A DNA stretch of 61,412 nucleotides, from NCBI GenBank assembly GCA_964405895.1, contig CAYOPQ010000001.1, positions 1-61,412 of the forward strand. The letters are read 5' to 3'. The translations under genes and the position numbers were made by a program. Positions within the stretch are counted from its first letter, which is position 1; every line of letters begins with the position of its first letter. Origin of the DNA: an uncultured Bacteroides sp. GTDB lineage: Bacteria > Bacillota > Clostridia > Oscillospirales > Acutalibacteraceae. Below the pieces are notes generated by a model. That model searched no databases. It was given only the letters and a program-made list of their open reading frames with translations, and was not told where the DNA came from. Positions 16,106 to 23,824 of this stretch are shown in pieces.

Positions 16106-17605
16106 ATGTCTGAAAAAGATTTATTGAATGAGAAAACAAACGCCGAAAACGGTCAAACCGAGGGTCTTAACGAGCAGGATATGCAGGAGGCTTACGATTA
16201 CTCTGTAAACCCCGCTTCCGACGAGTACGAGGACATCGAACCGTCCGTTGAAAGCACAGACGAAAACTTTTTCAAGAAACATAAATTGCTCTGCGCTGTT
16301 ATAGCTGTTGTGCTTGTTATCGCCCTTATAACAGGCGGCTGGCTTATCTTCGGAAATTCAAAAACAATCAGCCTGATTACCGACACATTAAATGTAGAAT
16401 ACGGTGAAAGCTATACGCCTGCTGTTACTGATTTCGTTGAGGAAAGTAAAATCGACGATAGTTATACAATTACAGGTGAAATTCCCAACGAGGACGAAAA
16501 AGAATATCCTGCAATCGGTGAATATTCTCTTATAATCTCCGCTGACGGTAAAGATGACGCGGAAGTAACTGTTATTGTAGCAGATACCACGGCACCTGAG
16601 TTTGCGGAAGATTCGCTCACAGAAATTACCGTCTACCTTGACACTGAGCTTACAGAAGAAACGCTGGGCAGTCTGTTCACGGTAACGGACCTTGAAGATG
16701 TAACGCTCTCTGTAGACGACAGTGAAGTAGATTACACAACCGCAGGCACATACACTGCAACGGTTTACGCTGTTGACGCGGCCGGTAACACAAGCGAGCT
16801 GGAAATCACGCTTGTTGTAACGGAAGACGAAGAGGAAGTGACAGACACAGAAGAAAGCACAGATGACAGTTCAACCGAGGACAACTCAAGTTCTTCAGGC
16901 AGTTCTTCAAGTTCCTCAAGCTCATCGAGCGGCTCAAGCAGTTCAAGTAAATCCGGCTCATCGAGTAGTTCAAGTAAGTCCGGCAGCTCGAGCAGCAGCT
17001 CCAACAAATCGAGCAGTTCGAGCAGTTCAAACAAATCAAGTTCGTCAAGCAGCTCAAGTTCTTCAAGTTCATCGAGCTCTTCGAGTAGTAGTTCGAGTTC
17101 TTCGACTGTAAGCGCTTCAGAGGTTGCTGAAAGAATTGTTTATTACATAAATCAATATAGAAAAAAAGACGGTACGTCGTCGTGTACGATGTTGTCAGGT
17201 CTCTCCGAATATTCACAATATAGGGCAAAGCAGCTTATTACAAACTTTGCGCATGATGAAGATGATATGACAGCAGCTGCAAATGCGCTCAAGTATGGGT
17301 ATTATATGGATCCTGATGTTTATGGGTTCGACGGCGAAGGATACTACAATGTAAATGCAAGGGAAGCGATTACCAAATTCGCTCCATCTGGAATTATCGG
17401 AATTTCAAATTTTACCACATCAAATATTGACACAATTGCAGAACAAGCTGCAAAAAATTTTTATAACAGTTCCGATCACTGGGCATATGTGGGCTCAAGC
17501 ACATATTCCTATATAGGCGTTGGGGTGACATATTCTGGTGCTTATGTTTATGTTTGTGTCAATATGGCACGAATCAATATTGACGAAAACCCGTTAGGGT
17601 ACTAA
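16106..17605 (+). CDS. Membrane-anchored protein: Ig-like domains, poly-Ser linker and C-terminal CAP (SCP) domain
   Basis: TM near aa 61-82; DTTAPEF and VDAAGNTS Ig-like signatures; INQYRK...NFAH...SSDHWAY...IGVGV CAP motifs. Confidence 0.85.
   Translation: MSEKDLLNEKTNAENGQTEGLNEQDMQEAYDYSVNPASDEYEDIEPSVESTDENFFKKHKLLCAVIAVVLVIALITGGWLIFGNSKTISLITDTLNVEYGESYTPAVTDFVEESKIDDSYTITGEIPNEDEKEYPAIGEYSLIISADGKDDAEVTVIVADTTAPEFAEDSLTEITVYLDTELTEETLGSLFTVTDLEDVTLSVDDSEVDYTTAGTYTATVYAVDAAGNTSELEITLVVTEDEEEVTDTEESTDDSSTEDNSSSSGSSSSSSSSSSGSSSSSKSGSSSSSSKSGSSSSSSNKSSSSSSSNKSSSSSSSSSSSSSSSSSSSSSSSTVSASEVAERIVYYINQYRKKDGTSSCTMLSGLSEYSQYRAKQLITNFAHDEDDMTAAANALKYGYYMDPDVYGFDGEGYYNVNAREAITKFAPSGIIGISNFTTSNIDTIAEQAAKNFYNSSDHWAYVGSSTYSYIGVGVTYSGAYVYVCVNMARINIDENPLGY
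16886..17104 (+). repeat. Serine-rich low-complexity linker with ~27-bp quasi-tandem units
   Basis: Encodes repeated KSGSSSSSS / NKSSSSSSS units using mixed AGY and TCN codons. Confidence 0.85.
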
Positions 17606-17651
17606 TTTTATCATAAAAATGAAAAATTATATACATTTGTAAAAAAAACAC

Positions 17652-17680
17652 TTGACAAATGCTTTTTTTACCATTATAAT
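17652..17680 (+). promoter_or_regulatory. Perfect consensus sigma70 promoter
   Basis: TTGACA (17652-17657), 17 bp, TATAAT (17675-17680), with an upstream A-tract. Confidence 0.85.
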
Positions 17681-17686
17681 AATAAT

Positions 17687-17755
17687 CAATGATCGTGTTG
17701 CAGATACTCGCGAGGACTGCGACCGGGGAGGGTTCTGCGGAACCCTCTTTTTTTT
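17687..17755 (+). ncRNA. Putative ~70-nt structured small RNA
   Basis: Lies between the consensus promoter and a terminator; stem GTTGCAG/CTGCGAC enclosing ctcgcgag; GC-rich in an AT-rich context; no ORF. Confidence 0.55.
17728..17755 (+). terminator. Rho-independent terminator
   Basis: gagggttc-tgcg-gaaccctc followed by T8. Confidence 0.85.
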
Positions 17756-17893
17756 GAACTGAGGAGAATATTATGATGTGAAAATGTTTGTGCTTACAAT
17801 TGTATATTGAAAAAAACGATATAGAGTATCAAGTAAACTTCCGACATTGCGATTTTACAGTTTCGGATTAAGAAAAGAGGGATAAGTCAGAAC

Positions 17894-18052
17894 ATGAAAA
17901 ACTTGAAAATAGATGCTAATGGAACAGAGATAAGAGTGATAGGCGATGTTGCAAATGAAAAAGCCTACATATCATTAACAGATATTGCCAAATATAAAAA
18001 TCCAGATAATGCTTTTTAACCTATCGAATTCGATAGGTTTAAAGCGGAGTCG
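17894..18052 (+). pseudogene. KilA-N domain protein remnant (internal deletion and in-frame stop)
   Basis: MKNLKIDANGTEIRVIGDVANEKAYISLTDIAKYKNPDNAF* then in-frame PIEFDRFKAES; YISLTDIA and FxPIEFD are motifs of KilA-N proteins that normally lie further apart. Confidence 0.7.
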
Positions 18053-18111: not shown

Positions 18112-18159
18112 GCCACACACAAAGCACTCGCCCTTATAGGCGGGTGCTTTGTGTGTGGC
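18112..18159. repeat. 21-bp inverted repeat (hairpin)
   Basis: gccacacacaaagcactcgcc-cttata-ggcgggtgctttgtgtgtggc, one G:T mismatch. Confidence 0.9.
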
Positions 18160-18290: not shown

Positions 18291-18341
18291 AAAAAACGAC
18301 TGCAAGGCATATCCGTTTCGGATTCCCCGCAGTCGTTTTTT
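18291..18341. terminator. Terminator downstream of the fem/alr-like operon
   Basis: aaaaaacgactgc ... gcagtcgtttttt, 13-bp arms. Confidence 0.8.
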
Positions 18342-18349
18342 GATTTTAA

Positions 18350-19435
18350 TCAGTCCGCCTGTTTATATACTCTTTCAATTCTCGGGTTTACCAAAAGCGG
18401 CGAAATATCAACGCTTGCGGTATCACCGGCTTTAACATCCGAATCGGTAACATCAACAGCCGTGTGGGAAAGGCCGATTTCACCGATAACATGAAACATT
18501 CTTCCGTTTATTCGCATGTACATTTGCTTGTTTTTGGCAAATTGCTTGGCGGCGGAAAGCACATATCTTAGATCCGCGGTTTCGCGCTCCTTTTGCAGTC
18601 CGAAGCCGTCGTAATGCCCTATGGGAACAACGGCGATTTTTGTTTCCCGCTTTGTTTTATAAAGTCCGTTATACCCAACGGCATATCCGGCGGGAACGGT
18701 TTTGACCTCAACCACCTCCGCTTCAAGAACGCCGAGTCTGTGAAGCGGTGTTTTTTTGTCTGTAATCACCCGTCCCGTAAAGGCGGAGCCGATTCTGACC
18801 GCGTCCATTGACACGCCGTCAACATTGAGAAGCGCGGGCGAATTTGCGCAGTGCGCAAGCCCTGTTTCGTGACCGGATTTTTTAATCTGTTCAATACAGT
18901 CCTTAAAAACGGTAAGCTGTGCTTTTGTAAGCTGCTTATTCCTGAACGCGCTTGAAAAATGCGTGTAAATTCCCGAAAATTTAAGCCGGCTCATATCATA
19001 GCATTCCAATGCCTTTGAAATTTCACTCGGCATAAAGCCGTATCTGCCCATTCCCGTGTCAATCTTCAGATGACATTCTGCGGTAATATCCGCCTTTTCA
19101 CAAGCGCTCTGCATTGCTTTCGCCGCCTCAAGGGAGCCGATTGTTGCAATACAGCCGTTTTTCGCAATTGCAAGCGCTTCGCTTTCTATGCAGGTTGAAC
19201 GCATCACAAGGATTTTATCGTCTTTTTCCGCAATATTTTTTATATACGGTATATCCGTAACCTCGGTAACCGCAAAAAAATGAATCCCGCATTCTTTAAT
19301 GGTCAGCGCCATTTCTTCTATGCCGAAGCCGTATCCGTTGCCCTTTACAACGCCTATGACCGGCACGCCGGCAATGTTTTTTATATATTCAATATTTTCT
19401 TTAAGCTTGTCCTTATCAATAACATATCTGCTCAT
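18350..19435 (-). CDS. alr: Alanine racemase family PLP enzyme (divergent substrate pocket)
   Basis: VVKGNGYGFG (PLP Lys), HLKIDTGMGRYG, YTHF, HCANS, VRIG, VGYNG (catalytic Tyr); family is clear, substrate uncertain. Confidence 0.85.
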   Translation of the reverse strand: MSRYVIDKDKLKENIEYIKNIAGVPVIGVVKGNGYGFGIEEMALTIKECGIHFFAVTEVTDIPYIKNIAEKDDKILVMRSTCIESEALAIAKNGCIATIGSLEAAKAMQSACEKADITAECHLKIDTGMGRYGFMPSEISKALECYDMSRLKFSGIYTHFSSAFRNKQLTKAQLTVFKDCIEQIKKSGHETGLAHCANSPALLNVDGVSMDAVRIGSAFTGRVITDKKTPLHRLGVLEAEVVEVKTVPAGYAVGYNGLYKTKRETKIAVVPIGHYDGFGLQKERETADLRYVLSAAKQFAKNKQMYMRINGRMFHVIGEIGLSHTAVDVTDSDVKAGDTASVDISPLLVNPRIERVYKQAD

Positions 19436-20469
19436 TATAATTTCTTCTTTAACTCCATTGCGAAATTGTATAGCTTATAAATCGGCTTGTTGATCACATA
19501 GTCAAATTCGCCTATAAATTCTTTCATATATCCGCCGAAGCCGTGCTTGAAGCGCCACAGCCCGTAATGCGGATTTTCGGGGTTTTGGCAGTCGCCGCTT
19601 ATCCCTCCGAAATCATAAACGGCGCAGCCGCATTCCAGACCCCATTTCATCATTTCCCACTGCAAAGCGTAATTCGGGTAAACATTCCTGTGGGCGTTAG
19701 AGGACGCGCCGTACTGGTATTTCATAACATTGCGCCCCCATTTTATGGCTATGGTTCCCGCAATCGGCTTGCCCTCGTAATAAGCCATATAAAGCCTTGC
19801 GTCCTCGCCCATGCAGTTCAGTATCTTTTCAAAATACCACTTCGGCCTTGTGGAAAAGCCGTCTCTTTCTCCGGTCTCCTGCATGATCTTTACGAAATCA
19901 TCCAGCGCCTCGGCGCCTTCAATTCTGACCTCAACGCCTTTTTTAGGCGCTTTTCTGATCCTGTTCCTGTAATCGGGTTTGAAGGTCAGCATAAGCTCCT
20001 CCTCGCTCATTCCGTTATAGTCAAAGCAATATACAAAGCGTGGCTGCACATTTTCAAAATCAAGGCAGCCGGGGTTGAGCTCAAGAAAGCCTTTTGCCAG
20101 CAGATGCTTTTTATATTCCGTATTTTCAACCGTGATTTCCGGGTCGATCTTTATGCAGTAAGCCTTGTATTCCTTGGCAAGCTTCAGCAGTCCGTCAAAA
20201 AGCGCGTCAAAGGTTTCAAAATCATCCTCATCGGCAACGAAGCCCCTGCAAATGTAAAACAGGGAATACCGTATCAGCGGCACAAATCGGATCAAAGCGG
20301 CGGCAGAACCCTTTATAGCACCGTTTTCATCCTTCAGCATGATTGCCTCCCATTTCCATGAGGACTTGACTTTCGCCCATTTTGAGGAATGCTGGAACAA
20401 TCCCTTGGGGTGCGATTTAATGAAACCCTCGTATTCCGCCAAATTGTCCTGAGTAACGCGTTCTATCAT
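19435..20469 (-). CDS. FemABX/MurM family aminoacyl-tRNA-dependent peptidoglycan branch ligase
   Basis: FQHSSKWAKVK, IKIDP, RNRIRKAPKKGV, YQYGASS, PNYALQW, YDFGG, GLWRFKHGF, IGEFD; 344 aa, no coiled-coil insert (FemX-like). Confidence 0.92.
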   Translation of the reverse strand: MIERVTQDNLAEYEGFIKSHPKGLFQHSSKWAKVKSSWKWEAIMLKDENGAIKGSAAALIRFVPLIRYSLFYICRGFVADEDDFETFDALFDGLLKLAKEYKAYCIKIDPEITVENTEYKKHLLAKGFLELNPGCLDFENVQPRFVYCFDYNGMSEEELMLTFKPDYRNRIRKAPKKGVEVRIEGAEALDDFVKIMQETGERDGFSTRPKWYFEKILNCMGEDARLYMAYYEGKPIAGTIAIKWGRNVMKYQYGASSNAHRNVYPNYALQWEMMKWGLECGCAVYDFGGISGDCQNPENPHYGLWRFKHGFGGYMKEFIGEFDYVINKPIYKLYNFAMELKKKL

Positions 20470-20650
20470 ATTTTACCTCCGCAATAACACGGTGCGTGTT
20501 AAATTTTGCTATTATTGTACCACAAATTATAGCATAAATGTAATAATCTTGTCTATATATATTGCGCTGTTTGTTGACTTTTATTATAAAATCAGTTACT
20601 ATAAAAATAAATAATTATTAGCAATATTCAGATATTTACGGGTGGAATTT

Positions 20651-23600
20651 ATGAAAAAAGCAGTTTGGGAAGATCCTAAAATCATTAAAATCAATAAAGA
20701 GGACGGCCATGTTATCGCCATGCCGTATGACGATGTGCAATCGGCTGTTTCCGGCAGGGAGAGCAAATACAAGCTTTCCTTAAACGGGCAATGGAAATTT
20801 TATTGGCAAAGGGGCTTGCGTAATCAGCCGCAGGGCTTTGAAAAAACGGATTTTGACGATTCCGAATGGGGAGAAATCAAGGTGCCCTCCGTTTGGCAGA
20901 CGCAGGGCTATTCCGTGCCGTATTATTATGCCAGCACATTTCCCAAAGCCATCAGCCGCAGCAAGCGCAAAATTCCTAAAATCAATCATAAAATGCAGGA
21001 AATCGGCTTTTACAGAAAAAGCTTTACGCTTGATCCGGCGTGGCAGGGCAGGGAAATATTTATTCATTTCGGTGCATGTAAAGCCGGTCTTGAGGTTTAT
21101 GTGAACGGCGAATTTGTGGGCTATTCCCAGGGCTCCATGACCCCGCATGAATTTGATATAACGAAATTTGTAAATATCGGCGCGGAAAATACGGTCTGCG
21201 CCAAGGTCTACAGATATACGGACGGTACTTATCTTGAGGATCAGGATATGTGGTGGCTTTGCGGCATTTACAGGGAGGTCTATGTGTTTGCCGAAAGCGC
21301 CGCCTGCGTGCGTGATTTCTTTTTCAGAACAAAGTTTGATACTTTTTATAAGAATGCCGACGCGCTGCTCAATGTTTATGTCGAAAATTACGGCGCTGTA
21401 CAGGGCAACGCCGTCTGCAAGGCGTATCTGATTTCCGATACGGGCAGTGAAATCAGCTTGGGTGAAAAGGTGTTAAAGCTTGAAACGGGCAGAACAGAAT
21501 TTGCGTTTAAAGCAGAGGTTGCGAATCCCAAAAAATGGTCTGCCGAAGCGCCCAATCTCTATACGCTTGTGATTATTCTCTTTACCGGCGCAGCGATTCA
21601 GGCGGTCAAAACCTATAAGGTGGGATTCAAGCAGGTTGAGATCAAGGGCGAAAAAATCTATTTTAACGGTATGCCGCTGATGATAAGAGGCGTTAACCGC
21701 CATGATTTTGACCCGGATAACGGCTGGGCTGTTCCGAGGGAAAGATATACGCAGGATCTTGATATTATGAAACAGAATAATATCAATTCCATTCGCACCT
21801 CGCATTATCCGGACGACCCTTATTTTTATAAAATGTGCAATGAATACGGCTTTTATGTTATGGACGAATGCGAAGTCGAATCGCACGGCGTAAGGCGCAA
21901 GGGCGTGCCGGGCAGCAATCCCGTCTGGACGCAGGCTGTTGTGGACAGAATGCAGCGCATGGTGCTCAGGGACAGGAACAATCCCTGCATATTTATGTGG
22001 AGCCTCGGCAACGAAGCGGGGGACGGCGATAATTTTGCCAAGATGAAAAAGGCGGCGCTTGAGCTTGACGATACAAGGCAGATCCATTATGAGGGGGATT
22101 TTGATTTAACCAAGAGCGATGTTATTTCCAGAATGTACCCCACTGCTGATATTATGGAAAAGCTCGGAAACAAGCAGGAAATCAAGATAACGCTTTACGA
22201 TAATATCGCAAATCAGCTTGCGGCGGACAGTAAGCCGATAAAGCCCGAAATGTATGAGGGCAAGCCGGTTATCCTTTGTGAATACGCCCATTCCATGGAA
22301 AATTCGCTGGGCAATTTCCAGGAATATATGGACGATTTTGAAAAGTACGAAAATATGTGCGGCGGCTTTATATGGGATTTTGTAGACCAAACGATACACC
22401 GCGTCAGCGAGGACGGCAAGGATATGTGGCTTTACGGCGATGATTTTGCCAAACAGGAGCCGCGCAGTGCTATTGATATTCCGAACACAACGGCGCTTGC
22501 CGGTTCAAATACCTATTTTTGCGCAAACGGCATAATCGCGGCGGACAGAACCGTACACCCGCAGATACACGAAGTGAAAAAGGTCTATGCGGAGATCAAA
22601 ACTGAGGAGTTTGATTTAAACAAGGGTACTTTTAAGGTGAAAAACAAACACCTGTTTACCAATCTTTCTGCGTTTGCCTGCCGCTGGGTCATCGAGGCGC
22701 AGGGCGAGAGGCTTGCAAGCGGCGAGCTTGACGATGTGGAATGCGAGCCGCTTTCGGAAACCTTTATAACGATTCCTTATGATATTACCGCGTTTCTGAG
22801 TGATAAAGAGGTGGTTTTGACCGTATCCTTCTACAATAAGCGCTATATGCCGGGTATAAAATCCGACTTTGAGGTGGCGTGGGATCAGTTTATTCTGAAT
22901 CCGATGCCGCAGCCGAGCGCTCCGAAATCAAAAGGCAAGCTTTCTTATGATAGCAAGGGCAATACGGTCAAGGTTTGGGGAGATAATTATAAAGTAAAAG
23001 TCAAAAACGGCAGAATCGTCAGCATATTTATTGGAGATGAACAGGTGCTGAAAGCCCCTATGGAGCCTTATTACTTCAGGGCGCTTACCGATAACGATAT
23101 TGATTCGCTGAATTTTGTGCCGGCGCTCATTCCGCTGCACCCCTATTACAAGTGGCGCAGGGCGAGCAAATCGGCTGTGGCGGTAAGAACCGTTGCAGGC
23201 GTCGGCGAGGACAACAGTGTTGAAATACATATTGCTTGGCGCACGCCGTTGCTTAAAGACGCTGTGTCAACCTACAGAATCTATCCGGACAGAAGAATTT
23301 ATGTATTTCACAGTGCAACGCCTAAAGCGGATATGGTCAGGTTCGGCATGCGCGTGACCCTTGACGGGAAGATGGAATATGTAGACTGGTACGGCAGAGG
23401 ACCGCATGCAACCTATTGCGACAGAAAAACGGGCGCGAAAATCGGCGCCTACAAGTCAACCGTAACGGAGCTTGAGCACAGATATATGCGTCCGCAGGAA
23501 AACGCGAACAGAACCGATGTTCGCTATGTTACATTTACCGACGAAAACGGAAGAGGTTTCAGGTTCACCTCCTATTTTGATGATTTCATAAACTTCAGTG

Positions 23601-23824
23601 CGCAGCACTACACGGTGGAACAGCTTGAGGCGGCAACGCATGTGCATACTATACCGTATAACAACAGTATTACTGCCGTAAATATTGACCATATGCAGCT
23701 CGGTGTCGGCGGCGATCTGCCCGGTCAGGCGTTTGTAAGGGAGCCTTATAAAATGAAAAAGGGCGTAAAGCAAAGCTACAGCTTTGTAATGGAGCCCGTT
23801 GATCTAAGGGAGAGCCATTCTTGA
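20651..23824 (+). CDS. lacZ: Beta-galactosidase, GH2 (LacZ-type)
   Basis: YLEDQDMW, GVNRHD, RTSHYP, WSLGNE, LCEYAHSM, GGFIWDFVDQ and the small-chain domain; promoter TTGACT-17-TACTAT at 20574-20602. Confidence 0.92.
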   Translation: MKKAVWEDPKIIKINKEDGHVIAMPYDDVQSAVSGRESKYKLSLNGQWKFYWQRGLRNQPQGFEKTDFDDSEWGEIKVPSVWQTQGYSVPYYYASTFPKAISRSKRKIPKINHKMQEIGFYRKSFTLDPAWQGREIFIHFGACKAGLEVYVNGEFVGYSQGSMTPHEFDITKFVNIGAENTVCAKVYRYTDGTYLEDQDMWWLCGIYREVYVFAESAACVRDFFFRTKFDTFYKNADALLNVYVENYGAVQGNAVCKAYLISDTGSEISLGEKVLKLETGRTEFAFKAEVANPKKWSAEAPNLYTLVIILFTGAAIQAVKTYKVGFKQVEIKGEKIYFNGMPLMIRGVNRHDFDPDNGWAVPRERYTQDLDIMKQNNINSIRTSHYPDDPYFYKMCNEYGFYVMDECEVESHGVRRKGVPGSNPVWTQAVVDRMQRMVLRDRNNPCIFMWSLGNEAGDGDNFAKMKKAALELDDTRQIHYEGDFDLTKSDVISRMYPTADIMEKLGNKQEIKITLYDNIANQLAADSKPIKPEMYEGKPVILCEYAHSMENSLGNFQEYMDDFEKYENMCGGFIWDFVDQTIHRVSEDGKDMWLYGDDFAKQEPRSAIDIPNTTALAGSNTYFCANGIIAADRTVHPQIHEVKKVYAEIKTEEFDLNKGTFKVKNKHLFTNLSAFACRWVIEAQGERLASGELDDVECEPLSETFITIPYDITAFLSDKEVVLTVSFYNKRYMPGIKSDFEVAWDQFILNPMPQPSAPKSKGKLSYDSKGNTVKVWGDNYKVKVKNGRIVSIFIGDEQVLKAPMEPYYFRALTDNDIDSLNFVPALIPLHPYYKWRRASKSAVAVRTVAGVGEDNSVEIHIAWRTPLLKDAVSTYRIYPDRRIYVFHSATPKADMVRFGMRVTLDGKMEYVDWYGRGPHATYCDRKTGAKIGAYKSTVTELEHRYMRPQENANRTDVRYVTFTDENGRGFRFTSYFDDFINFSAQHYTVEQLEAATHVHTIPYNNSITAVNIDHMQLGVGGDLPGQAFVREPYKMKKGVKQSYSFVMEPVDLRESHS

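What the first reader, a model, noticed from the sequence alone, without database searches (positions are those of the whole stretch)
18350..20469. Coupled Fem ligase and remodelled alanine racemase: candidate ligate-then-epimerise peptidoglycan branch system
Seen: a FemX-type ligase gene and an Alr-fold gene form a two-gene operon with a TAATG stop/start overlap and a terminator. The racemase keeps the catalytic set (PLP Lys in VVKGNGYG, Arg in TGMGR, THF, VRIG, Tyr in VGYNG). Motifs lining the substrate site and entryway are changed: THFAxAD becomes THFSSAF, GYADG becomes GHYDG, GRVCMD becomes GEIGLS, and the C-terminal GTIxYE segment is missing. An amphipathic-looking insertion (ADLRYVLSAAKQFAK) follows the DG motif. 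Established: Fem/MurM ligases use aminoacyl-tRNA, so they install only Gly or L-residues; D-residues in bridges are normally added by ATP-grasp ligases. Inference: the opened pocket may accept the free alpha-amine of a residue already attached to the stem peptide or lipid II and epimerise it, a route to D-residue branches that I do not know to be described.
Basis: partly seen in the sequence, partly recalled or inferred. Interest (0 to 1): 0.75.

Follow-up and report, generated by a model that had tools for sequence, protein, structure and literature searches.

The report
Likely maker of LL-DAP cell walls
A cell-wall branching enzyme (Fem) and a remodelled alanine-racemase-like protein are encoded side by side here and in many Bacillota and Actinomycetes, including Streptomyces, and the racemase-like protein likely flips meso-diaminopimelate to the LL form inside the wall precursor so that Fem can attach the cross-bridge, which would explain how LL-DAP cell walls are made.

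Summary
In detail: femX-type gene (19435-20469) and Alr-fold gene (18350-19435) overlap at TAATG and end in a strong hairpin; a separate canonical alr exists. Among 151 Actinomycetes genomes the same 75 carry both genes (73 adjacent) and 76 carry neither; among 300 Bacillota 105 carry both, 11 Fem only, 183 neither. All copies keep the Alr catalytic set but share a ~24-residue insertion and loss of the Tyr354 lid. Named carriers (Streptomyces, Nocardioides, Sporichthya) have LL-DAP walls, bridged by achiral glycine, so epimerising the Fem-added residue cannot be the general job. Carriers keep a DAP-type MurE (DNPR, 19 of 19); 9 of 11 Fem-only genomes have a second, non-DAP MurE. Best reading (inferred, no assay): epimerise-then-ligate. 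The enzyme inverts the free distal centre of meso-DAP in the stem peptide and Fem traps the LL form. The source of LL-DAP walls is stated as open in print; S. coelicolor's 343-aa unknown SCO3903, next to femX, is the likely orthologue and a direct test.

The parts
19435..20469 (-). FemX-type aminoacyl-tRNA-dependent transferase, 344 aa, no coiled-coil insert; the only Fem gene found in the genome
   Evidence: PF02388 206.7 bits; one locus genome-wide; NF047883 173.5 bits, below the 500 cut-off
18350..19435 (-). Alr-fold PLP protein, 361 aa; proposed stem-peptide meso-DAP to LL-DAP epimerase
   Evidence: AlphaFold2 pLDDT 97, Foldseek TM 0.82-0.86 to Alr/VanT; own clade
19433..19437 (-). TAATG stop/start overlap (translational coupling inferred)
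   Evidence: sequence
19343..19345 (-). Lys31 = Alr Lys39, PLP Schiff base and first catalytic base
   Evidence: Lys in 176 of 184 family copies; role from PMC8142540 passages
19043..19045 (-). Arg131 = Alr Arg136, binds the substrate carboxylate
   Evidence: Arg in 175 of 184 copies; role from PMC3146814 passages
18671..18673 (-). Tyr255 = Alr Tyr265', second catalytic base from the partner subunit
   Evidence: Tyr in 176 of 184 copies; in the predicted dimer interface
18521..18604 (-). Family-specific insertion (residues ~278-305) with a basic amphipathic helix, 289-300; replaces the Arg290 entry residue
   Evidence: G277-G318 span 46-48 aa against 23 in canonical Alr; helix in model; partly buried in the predicted dimer
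18371..18427 (-). Shortened C-terminal segment: about 22 residues with Ile352/Tyr354 deleted
   Evidence: G337-R355 span 17-19 aa against 41; xYE motif in 0 of 184 family copies, 58 of 76 canonical
18291..18341 (-). Intrinsic-terminator-like hairpin, A-run before and U-run after
   Evidence: -30.6 kcal/mol, z -7.4
20526..20555 (-). Sigma-70-like promoter match upstream of fem (11 of 12, TG before the -10 hexamer)
   Evidence: 7 sites found against 4.5 expected in the region, so weak

Best explanation
The Fem gene and the Alr-fold gene form one module found together across Bacillota, Armatimonadota and Actinomycetes, and the Alr-fold protein likely is a PLP epimerase that turns meso-DAP into LL-DAP after it is built into the peptidoglycan precursor, after which Fem likely caps the new L-amine with the bridge residue. 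Steps: (1) MurE with the DNPR motif adds DAP, most likely meso (motif shown; isomer inferred). (2) The distal carbon of that DAP still has a free amine and a free carboxylate, so it looks like an amino acid with a very long side chain; Lys31, Arg131 and Tyr255' would bind and invert it as in Alr, and the deleted Tyr354 lid would let the stem peptide in (residues shown; chemistry inferred). (3) The reaction is reversible, so net LL-DAP needs a trap: Fem acylates the amine from aminoacyl-tRNA (Gly in actinomycetes; residue unknown here), which also stops PLP from binding it again (inferred). (4) The bridge amine serves as acceptor for cross-linking, giving A3gamma-type walls. Whether the substrate is UDP-MurNAc-pentapeptide or lipid II is open; the basic amphipathic helix hints at the membrane.
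For: Separate canonical alr and separate dapL-dapF, so neither D-Ala nor free-DAP epimerisation needs this gene. Co-occurrence: Actinomycetes 75 both, 76 neither, 0 discordant of 151, 73 adjacent, the other 2 at contig breaks; Bacillota 105 both, 11 Fem only, 1 racemase only, 183 neither of 300, 89 of 97 listed copies within 1 kb of fem, the single racemase-only case being a contig break through fem; nearer relatives 44 both, 1 and 1 discordant, 14 neither of 60. One family: HHalign 99.6% over 325 columns including the insertion, same two indels, one branch against canonical Alr (SH-aLRT 99; 94 with indel columns removed). Named carriers Streptomyces, Nocardioides/Pimelobacter, Sporichthya have LL-A2pm walls per PMC6113628 passages; Motilibacter, Aestuariimicrobium, Dehalobacter restrictus, Desulfosporosinus, Moorella are LL-DAP by my recall only. 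DNPR MurE in 19 of 19 carriers; DNPR binds the D-centre carboxylate of meso-DAP (PMC3829189 passages). In 9 of 11 Fem-only Bacillota a second MurE lacks that arginine, 7 of them within about 8 kb of fem. Tyr354 forms the entry constriction (PMC3146814 passages). An Alr-fold enzyme can epimerise DAP: DapF2 (PMC13759103 passages). S. coelicolor femX SCO3904 is followed by SCO3903, 343 aa, unknown function, repressed with it by vancomycin and bacitracin (PMC3123327 supplement rows); Streptomyces family members beside fem are 343 aa. Predicted homodimer: score 0.86, best of 3 controls 0.00; mark reached by 20 of 30 solved pairs and 1 of 23 single chains; contacts agree 96%, pLDDT 91; may pass by likeness to solved Alr dimers.
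Against: No activity was measured and no substrate was docked. The wall of this organism is unknown. DNPR does not separate meso from LL, and E. coli MurE can take LL-DAP (PMC2993542 passage), so LL-DAP could enter at MurE. Syntrophomonas wolfei carries the pair but is, by my recall, described with meso-DAP; the paper was not held. LL-DAP status of the Bacillota carriers is recalled: three genome papers checked gave no wall data. The 76 negative actinomycetes were not named, apart from Cryobacterium. SCO3903 is linked by position and length, its sequence was not compared. G050 (93% complete) has a 51%-identical copy and no PF02388 hit; G097 and G115 are Fem-only without a clear non-DAP MurE. 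Kin are not independent, the tree is a quick one with a long actinobacterial branch, and weak racemase-only copies could hide among 256 unlisted matches. Part of the amphipathic helix lies in the predicted dimer interface, which weakens the membrane reading.
Confidence: 0.68

Rival explanations
1. It epimerises free DAP (DapF2-like), raising the LL pool, and a tolerant MurE then builds LL-DAP in; Fem adds the bridge.
For: DapF2 is an Alr-fold epimerase of free DAP. MurE can accept LL-DAP, and pool size was proposed to set wall isomers (PMC2993542). Fits the same phenotype and MurE pattern.
Against: The genome already has dapF beside dapL; a second reversible epimerase of the same free substrate cannot shift the equilibrium (established thermodynamics). 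The gene sits with fem, not with lysine genes as dapF2 does. A 22-residue deletion plus a new helix is more than free DAP would need (inference).
Confidence: 0.13
2. One reading: Fem adds an L-residue, and the racemase then inverts its free alpha-amine to give a D-branch.
For: Tight coupling to fem; opened entry; the residue added by the Bacillota Fems is unknown. Christensenella has LL-DAP with Ser and Ala and no Gly listed (PMC12692188 passage), so chiral bridges on LL-DAP may exist; whether it carries the pair was not tested. No match to three proteins of a D-Asp-bridge-like set in this genome.
Against: Conserved with intact catalytic residues in glycine-bridged actinomycetes. Arg136 kept. 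Absent beside Fems that go with non-DAP MurE, which this route does not predict.
Confidence: 0.07
3. It is a racemase of a free amino acid (Ser, Lys, Orn or broad), supplying D-amino acids for wall editing, and only co-regulated with fem.
For: Passes TIGR00492 (178 against 168), next best VanT; VanT and broad racemases are Alr-fold with altered entries (entry changes recalled).
Against: Below the VanT, PRK13340 and Orr cut-offs. Does not explain 75 of 75 co-occurrence or the link to MurE type. Fem uses aminoacyl-tRNA, not free D-amino acids (established).
Confidence: 0.06
4. It runs the other way or is a quality-control editor: it converts mis-incorporated LL-DAP in the precursor to meso-DAP, or removes wrong Fem additions.
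For: Epimerases are reversible; carriers with the DapL route make LL-DAP directly; would fit a meso-DAP report for S. wolfei (recalled) and the mixed walls of Kitasatospora.
Against: Named actinobacterial carriers have LL walls; a meso-restoring enzyme would have no reason to travel with fem.
Confidence: 0.06

Closest known systems
Alanine racemase Alr/DadX (EC 5.1.1.1, PLP fold type III)
   Same: Fold, predicted dimer, Lys39/Tyr265' bases, Arg136, His166, His200, Arg219.
   Different: Tyr354/Ile352 segment deleted, Arg290 replaced by a helical insertion, Asp171 and Asp313 lost; separate clade; a canonical alr coexists.
DapF2 / staphylococcal Alr2 (Alr-fold DAP epimerase; PMC13759103, PMC9026213)
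   Same: Alr homologue that inverts a DAP centre.
   Different: Acts on free DAP for lysine synthesis, sits in lys operons, replaces dapF. Here dapF is present and the partner is fem. Sequences could not be compared.
S. coelicolor FemX (SCO3904) / VanK and A3gamma LL-DAP-Gly peptidoglycan
   Same: Same Fem subfamily (29-34% to streptomycete Fems) and the same downstream gene.
   Different: FemX is described (Gly transfer recalled from Hong 2005, not read); SCO3903 is annotated unknown, and no epimerase step is described in the papers searched.
MurD2/MurL of Xanthomonas (epimerisation of a residue already in the UDP-MurNAc peptide; PMC8788868 seen as search listing, mechanism recalled)
   Same: Stereochemistry set after ligation, on the precursor.
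   Different: Acts on Glu at position 2, not a PLP Alr fold, no Fem partner.
VanT serine racemase and broad-spectrum racemases (BsrV, Lyr, Bar)
   Same: Alr fold with altered entry and new specificity.
   Different: Free amino-acid substrates; below their HMM cut-offs; no membrane domain or van cluster.

Membership tests
Alanine racemase (Alr) | Fold type III barrel plus beta domain, head-to-tail dimer | tested here: met
   Foldseek TM 0.82-0.86; dimer score 0.86 against 0.00, may be from likeness
Alanine racemase (Alr) | Catalytic Lys39 and Tyr265', Arg136, His166, Arg219 | tested here: met
Alanine racemase (Alr) | Eight conserved entryway residues (Tyr265', Tyr354, Tyr284', Ala170, Arg309', Ile352, Arg290', Asp171; PMC3146814) | tested here: not met
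   Tyr354 and Ile352 deleted, Arg290 replaced by the insertion, Asp171 is Phe, Arg309 is Glu, Tyr284 is His
Alanine racemase (Alr) | TIGR00492 cut-off; groups with canonical Alr in a tree | tested here: inconclusive
   178 bits against 168 but over 6-329 of 369 positions; tree separates it from canonical Alr; actinobacterial copies score 29 bits or less
Alanine racemase (Alr) | Racemises free alanine | not testable with these tools
   needs assay
DapF2 | Replaces dapF and lies with lysine-biosynthesis genes | tested here: not met
   dapF beside dapL on C40; neighbour is fem
DapF2 | Sequence orthology to staphylococcal Alr2 | not tested
   no DapF2 sequence could be retrieved
VanT serine racemase | NF033131/NF033132 cut-offs, membrane domain, van cluster | tested here: not met
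   164.9 against 460, 130 against 900; 361 aa, no van genes beside it
Broad-spectrum / ornithine racemases | NF009879 and NF040742 cut-offs | tested here: not met
   89 against 434, 31 against 480
Fem/MurM transferases, FemX type | PF02388 over both GNAT halves, no coiled-coil insert | tested here: met
   206.7 bits; profile 4-238 and 307-404, 344 aa
Fem/MurM transferases, FemX type | Weissella FemX equivalog (Ala onto Lys) | tested here: not met
   173.5 against 500; MurE is DAP-type
Fem/MurM transferases, FemX type | Donor aminoacyl-tRNA and acceptor | not testable with these tools
   38 tRNAs found, 4 Gly, no clue to the donor
A3gamma (LL-DAP bridged) peptidoglycan producers | LL-DAP and a bridge residue in the wall of this organism | not testable with these tools
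   gene content fits; chemistry known only for named relatives
MurL precursor epimerase | Non-PLP enzyme acting on UDP-MurNAc-L-Ala-L-Glu, paired with MurD2 (recalled) | tested here: not met
   protein is PLP Alr fold, paired with Fem

The most novel reading that the evidence does not exclude
This is the missing enzyme of LL-DAP peptidoglycan: a PLP epimerase acting on the wall precursor, which with FemX forms a portable two-gene switch from meso-DAP direct cross-links to LL-DAP bridged walls. Its presence defines wall chemotype I of Streptomyces and relatives, its regulation explains the meso/LL switch of Kitasatospora, and it predicts LL-DAP walls in a large share of uncultured gut Clostridia, which would change what host peptidoglycan sensors and lysins meet.
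Probability: 0.6. Interest if true: 0.9.

Novelty: new variant of a known kind. Interest (0 to 1): 0.82.

Why it matters
LL-DAP is a textbook marker of Streptomyces and other actinomycetes, yet how it gets into the wall is unsettled: Ichikawa 2010 (PMC2993542, passages) found MurE recognition residues the same in LL and meso organisms, fell back on DapF pool sizes, and wrote that the reasons for the abundance of LL-DAP may have been overlooked. This finding names one gene (likely SCO3903) and one assay that decide it. It would add a step to peptidoglycan synthesis, give a genomic predictor of wall type for taxa listed without data (Ruminococcus, Oscillibacter; PMC11382707 table passage), offer a candidate for the Kitasatospora isomer switch, flag a large misannotated 'alanine racemase' family, and suggest a narrow-spectrum target.

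Tried and rejected
Sole alr of the genome: rejected. Lysine-pathway gap filler: rejected, dapF present. Fem-racemase fusions suggested by 651-963 aa open frames: rejected, these are overlapping high-GC frames. Link to D-Ser bridges of Bifidobacterium bifidum or Cellulosimicrobium (recalled): no paper among the 20 listed held the term and no genome could be named to test it. Viral contigs: no relative; phages and plasmids: no actinobacterial-type copy, and only canonical-looking hits among the 25 rows shown for the window protein. Five streptomycete plasmid Fems have no racemase neighbour. The one named-genome scan mostly returned canonical Alr (5 family members of 80 loci). A homologue search for names of close relatives gave none below family level. 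ESM Atlas returned only 'alanine racemase' clusters. DapF2 sequence not obtained. No RNA holder was listed. Earlier scan notes: none. Four papers sought were not held. The careful tree did not finish; quick trees are reported. Not in print as far as searched: (open-access library only; subscription journals are mostly missing).
Full report
Observation. The window holds two minus-strand ORFs, 19435-20469 (344 aa) and 18350-19435 (361 aa), joined by TAATG and followed by a hairpin at 18291-18341 (-30.6 kcal/mol, z -7.4). The first is a FemX-type transferase (PF02388), the only one found in the genome. The second is Alr-fold: Pfam N domain complete, C domain cut short, model pLDDT 97, TM 0.82-0.86 to Alr and VanT.

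It is not the housekeeping enzyme. PF01168 finds three loci in the genome; one is a canonical 382-aa Alr with THFATAD-like, GYADG, GRVCMD and NYE motifs. dapF lies beside dapL. MurE carries DNPR, the motif that binds the D-centre carboxylate of meso-DAP (PMC3829189, passages), so the stem holds DAP.

Distribution. Of 60 relatives, 44 have both genes, 14 neither, one each only one. A search of cluster representatives gave 388 hits at E<=1e-30; the best 150 were aligned, and those shown carry the same two indels (output partly cut). In 300 Bacillota genomes: 105 both, 11 Fem only, 1 racemase only, 183 neither; 89 of 97 listed full-length copies lie within 1 kb of fem on the same strand. The racemase-only case is a contig break through fem. 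These counts cover Fems similar to the query (E<=1e-30), not distant coiled-coil FemAB types, and only the 150 listed racemase rows plus 9 copies found beside fem. Armatimonadota and Abditibacteriota copies also follow fem. In 151 Actinomycetes the same 75 genomes have both genes, 73 adjacent, and 76 have neither; 30 of 30 fetched fem loci had the Alr-fold gene next door. Related genomes are not independent, so no P value is given.

One family. Profiles of the close and the actinobacterial groups align at 99.6% over 325 columns, insertion included. Across 137 + 23 + 24 copies against 76 canonical Alr: Lys39 176 of 184, Arg136 175, His166 176, Arg219 180, Tyr265' 176; the span after GxxxG is 46-48 aa against 23; the C-terminal span is 17-19 against 41; xYE in 0 of 184 against 58 of 76; Asp313 and Asp171 are lost. 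Quick trees put the family on one side of a branch (45 against 28 rows, SH-aLRT 99; 70 against 38 rows without indel columns, 94), unrooted and with a long actinobacterial branch. Tyr354 with Tyr265' makes the 2.6 A constriction of the Alr entry and Arg136 binds the substrate carboxylate (PMC3146814, passages). So catalysis and carboxylate binding are kept and the lid is gone. The insertion is basic (median net +2 to +3) and amphipathic (93rd-99th percentile of each protein's windows). A homodimer is predicted (0.86, best control 0.00; mark reached by 20 of 30 solved pairs and 1 of 23 single chains; contacts agree 96%, pLDDT 91; possibly from likeness to solved Alr), with Lys31 and Tyr255 in the interface and part of the new helix buried, so membrane binding is not established.

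What the carriers' walls say. Named actinobacterial members: Streptomyces (clusters of 1837 and 359), Nocardioides/Pimelobacter, Sporichthya, Motilibacter, Aestuariimicrobium, Carbonactinospora, Solicola. PMC6113628 (passages) gives LL-A2pm for Sporichthya, LL-A2pm and glycine for Nocardioidaceae, and LL-A2pm for Streptomycetaceae spores and aerial hyphae. S. coelicolor femX (SCO3904, 373 aa) is followed on the same strand by SCO3903, 343 aa, unknown function, and both fall under vancomycin and bacitracin (PMC3123327, passage and supplement rows, files 13-14 not searched); the Streptomyces members are 343 aa. Named Bacillota members: Desulfosporosinus, Desulfitobacterium, Dehalobacter restrictus, Moorella thermoacetica, Syntrophomonas wolfei, Syntrophothermus, Thermacetogenium, Thermosyntropha, Zhaonella. 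LL-DAP in Desulfosporosinus, Dehalobacter and Moorella is my recall; meso-DAP in S. wolfei is also my recall and counts against. A Faecalibacterium MAG lacks both genes and the genus is listed as meso-DAP (PMC11382707, table passage).

The MurE control. All 19 carriers examined have DNPR, and 17 of the 18 searched have a single MurE. In the 11 Fem-only Bacillota no family copy was found; all 10 searched have two or more MurE-like genes, and 9 of 11 have one without the DNPR arginine (DNPK, DNPA, DNPE, EDPG, EDPQ), 7 of them near fem. Fem-only sequences fall in at least four places of the Fem tree. The Alr-fold gene is thus kept when Fem acts on DAP and mostly dropped when a Lys/Orn-type stem is likely.

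Mechanism. The distal carbon of stem DAP has a free amine and a free carboxylate and a huge side chain: the substrate that a lidless Alr with Arg136 would fit. An Alr-fold protein is already shown to replace DapF (PMC13759103, passages; PMC9026213, passages). A second enzyme for free DAP would not move an equilibrium that DapF already sets, whereas inversion on the precursor followed by tRNA-driven acylation by Fem gives a net LL product and blocks reversal.

Comparison and novelty. It works like Alr and DapF2 in chemistry and like MurL in timing, but fails the entryway test for Alr and the context test for DapF2. PMC2993542 (passages) states that MurE residues do not explain LL-DAP walls and proposes DapF pools. 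Five searches of the open library found no description of this enzyme or of the pair; subscription papers and unseen supplements could hold one. I rate it a new variant of a known kind, with high interest because it makes an old question testable with one knockout and one assay.

Noticed in passing
L191 (G000:C46), 1344-aa open frame ending at locus 1471: A complete DapF domain sits at the C-terminus of a long ORF whose upstream part reads like carbamoyl-phosphate synthase large subunit (recalled likeness, not scanned): a possible CarB-DapF fusion, besides the stand-alone dapF on C40.
   Followed up: no
L052:4988-6019 (G050): A degenerate family paralogue lacking the catalytic Lys, Arg136 and Tyr265' equivalents, in the one genome that has an intact copy but no Fem hit.
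   Followed up: partly
L089, L094, L096, L098, L099, L105, L335: Fem-only loci carry a second MurE with a non-DAP motif, some also an Asp/Glu racemase (PF01177) and an unclassified 400-aa gene: a separate cassette that may switch the stem to Lys/Orn with an acidic or mixed bridge, alongside a DNPR MurE.
   Followed up: partly
L069, L086-L088, L090: Gene order is reversed (racemase before fem) in these genomes; L088 has a further ~70-residue insertion in the barrel.
   Followed up: no
L100 (G216), L209 (G467), L218 (G404): The racemase-like gene is split in two frames next to an intact fem; real breaks or assembly errors not resolved.
   Followed up: no
L106, L107, L108, L189, L190: Streptomycete plasmid Fems stand without the racemase-like gene; L108 and L189 lie beside glycopeptide-resistance clusters and L107 beside murJ and a two-component pair (VanK-like).
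   Followed up: partly
window 17895-18020 (+): A 41-codon stub that reads like the start of a KilA-N domain (recalled likeness) and stops early, followed by inverted repeats; probably a relic of a mobile element.
   Followed up: no
window 18112-18159: A 20-pair GC-rich hairpin with a T-rich tail on the plus strand, facing the operon's terminator.
   Followed up: no
window 17640-17760 (+): Promoter-like TTGACA/TATAAT followed by about 70 GC-rich bases ending in a terminator-like hairpin and T-run: a possible small RNA; not searched against Rfam.
   Followed up: no
window 16106-17605 (+) and 20642-23824 (+): Flanking genes are a Ser-rich CAP-domain protein and a GH2 beta-galactosidase, unrelated to the operon.
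   Followed up: yes
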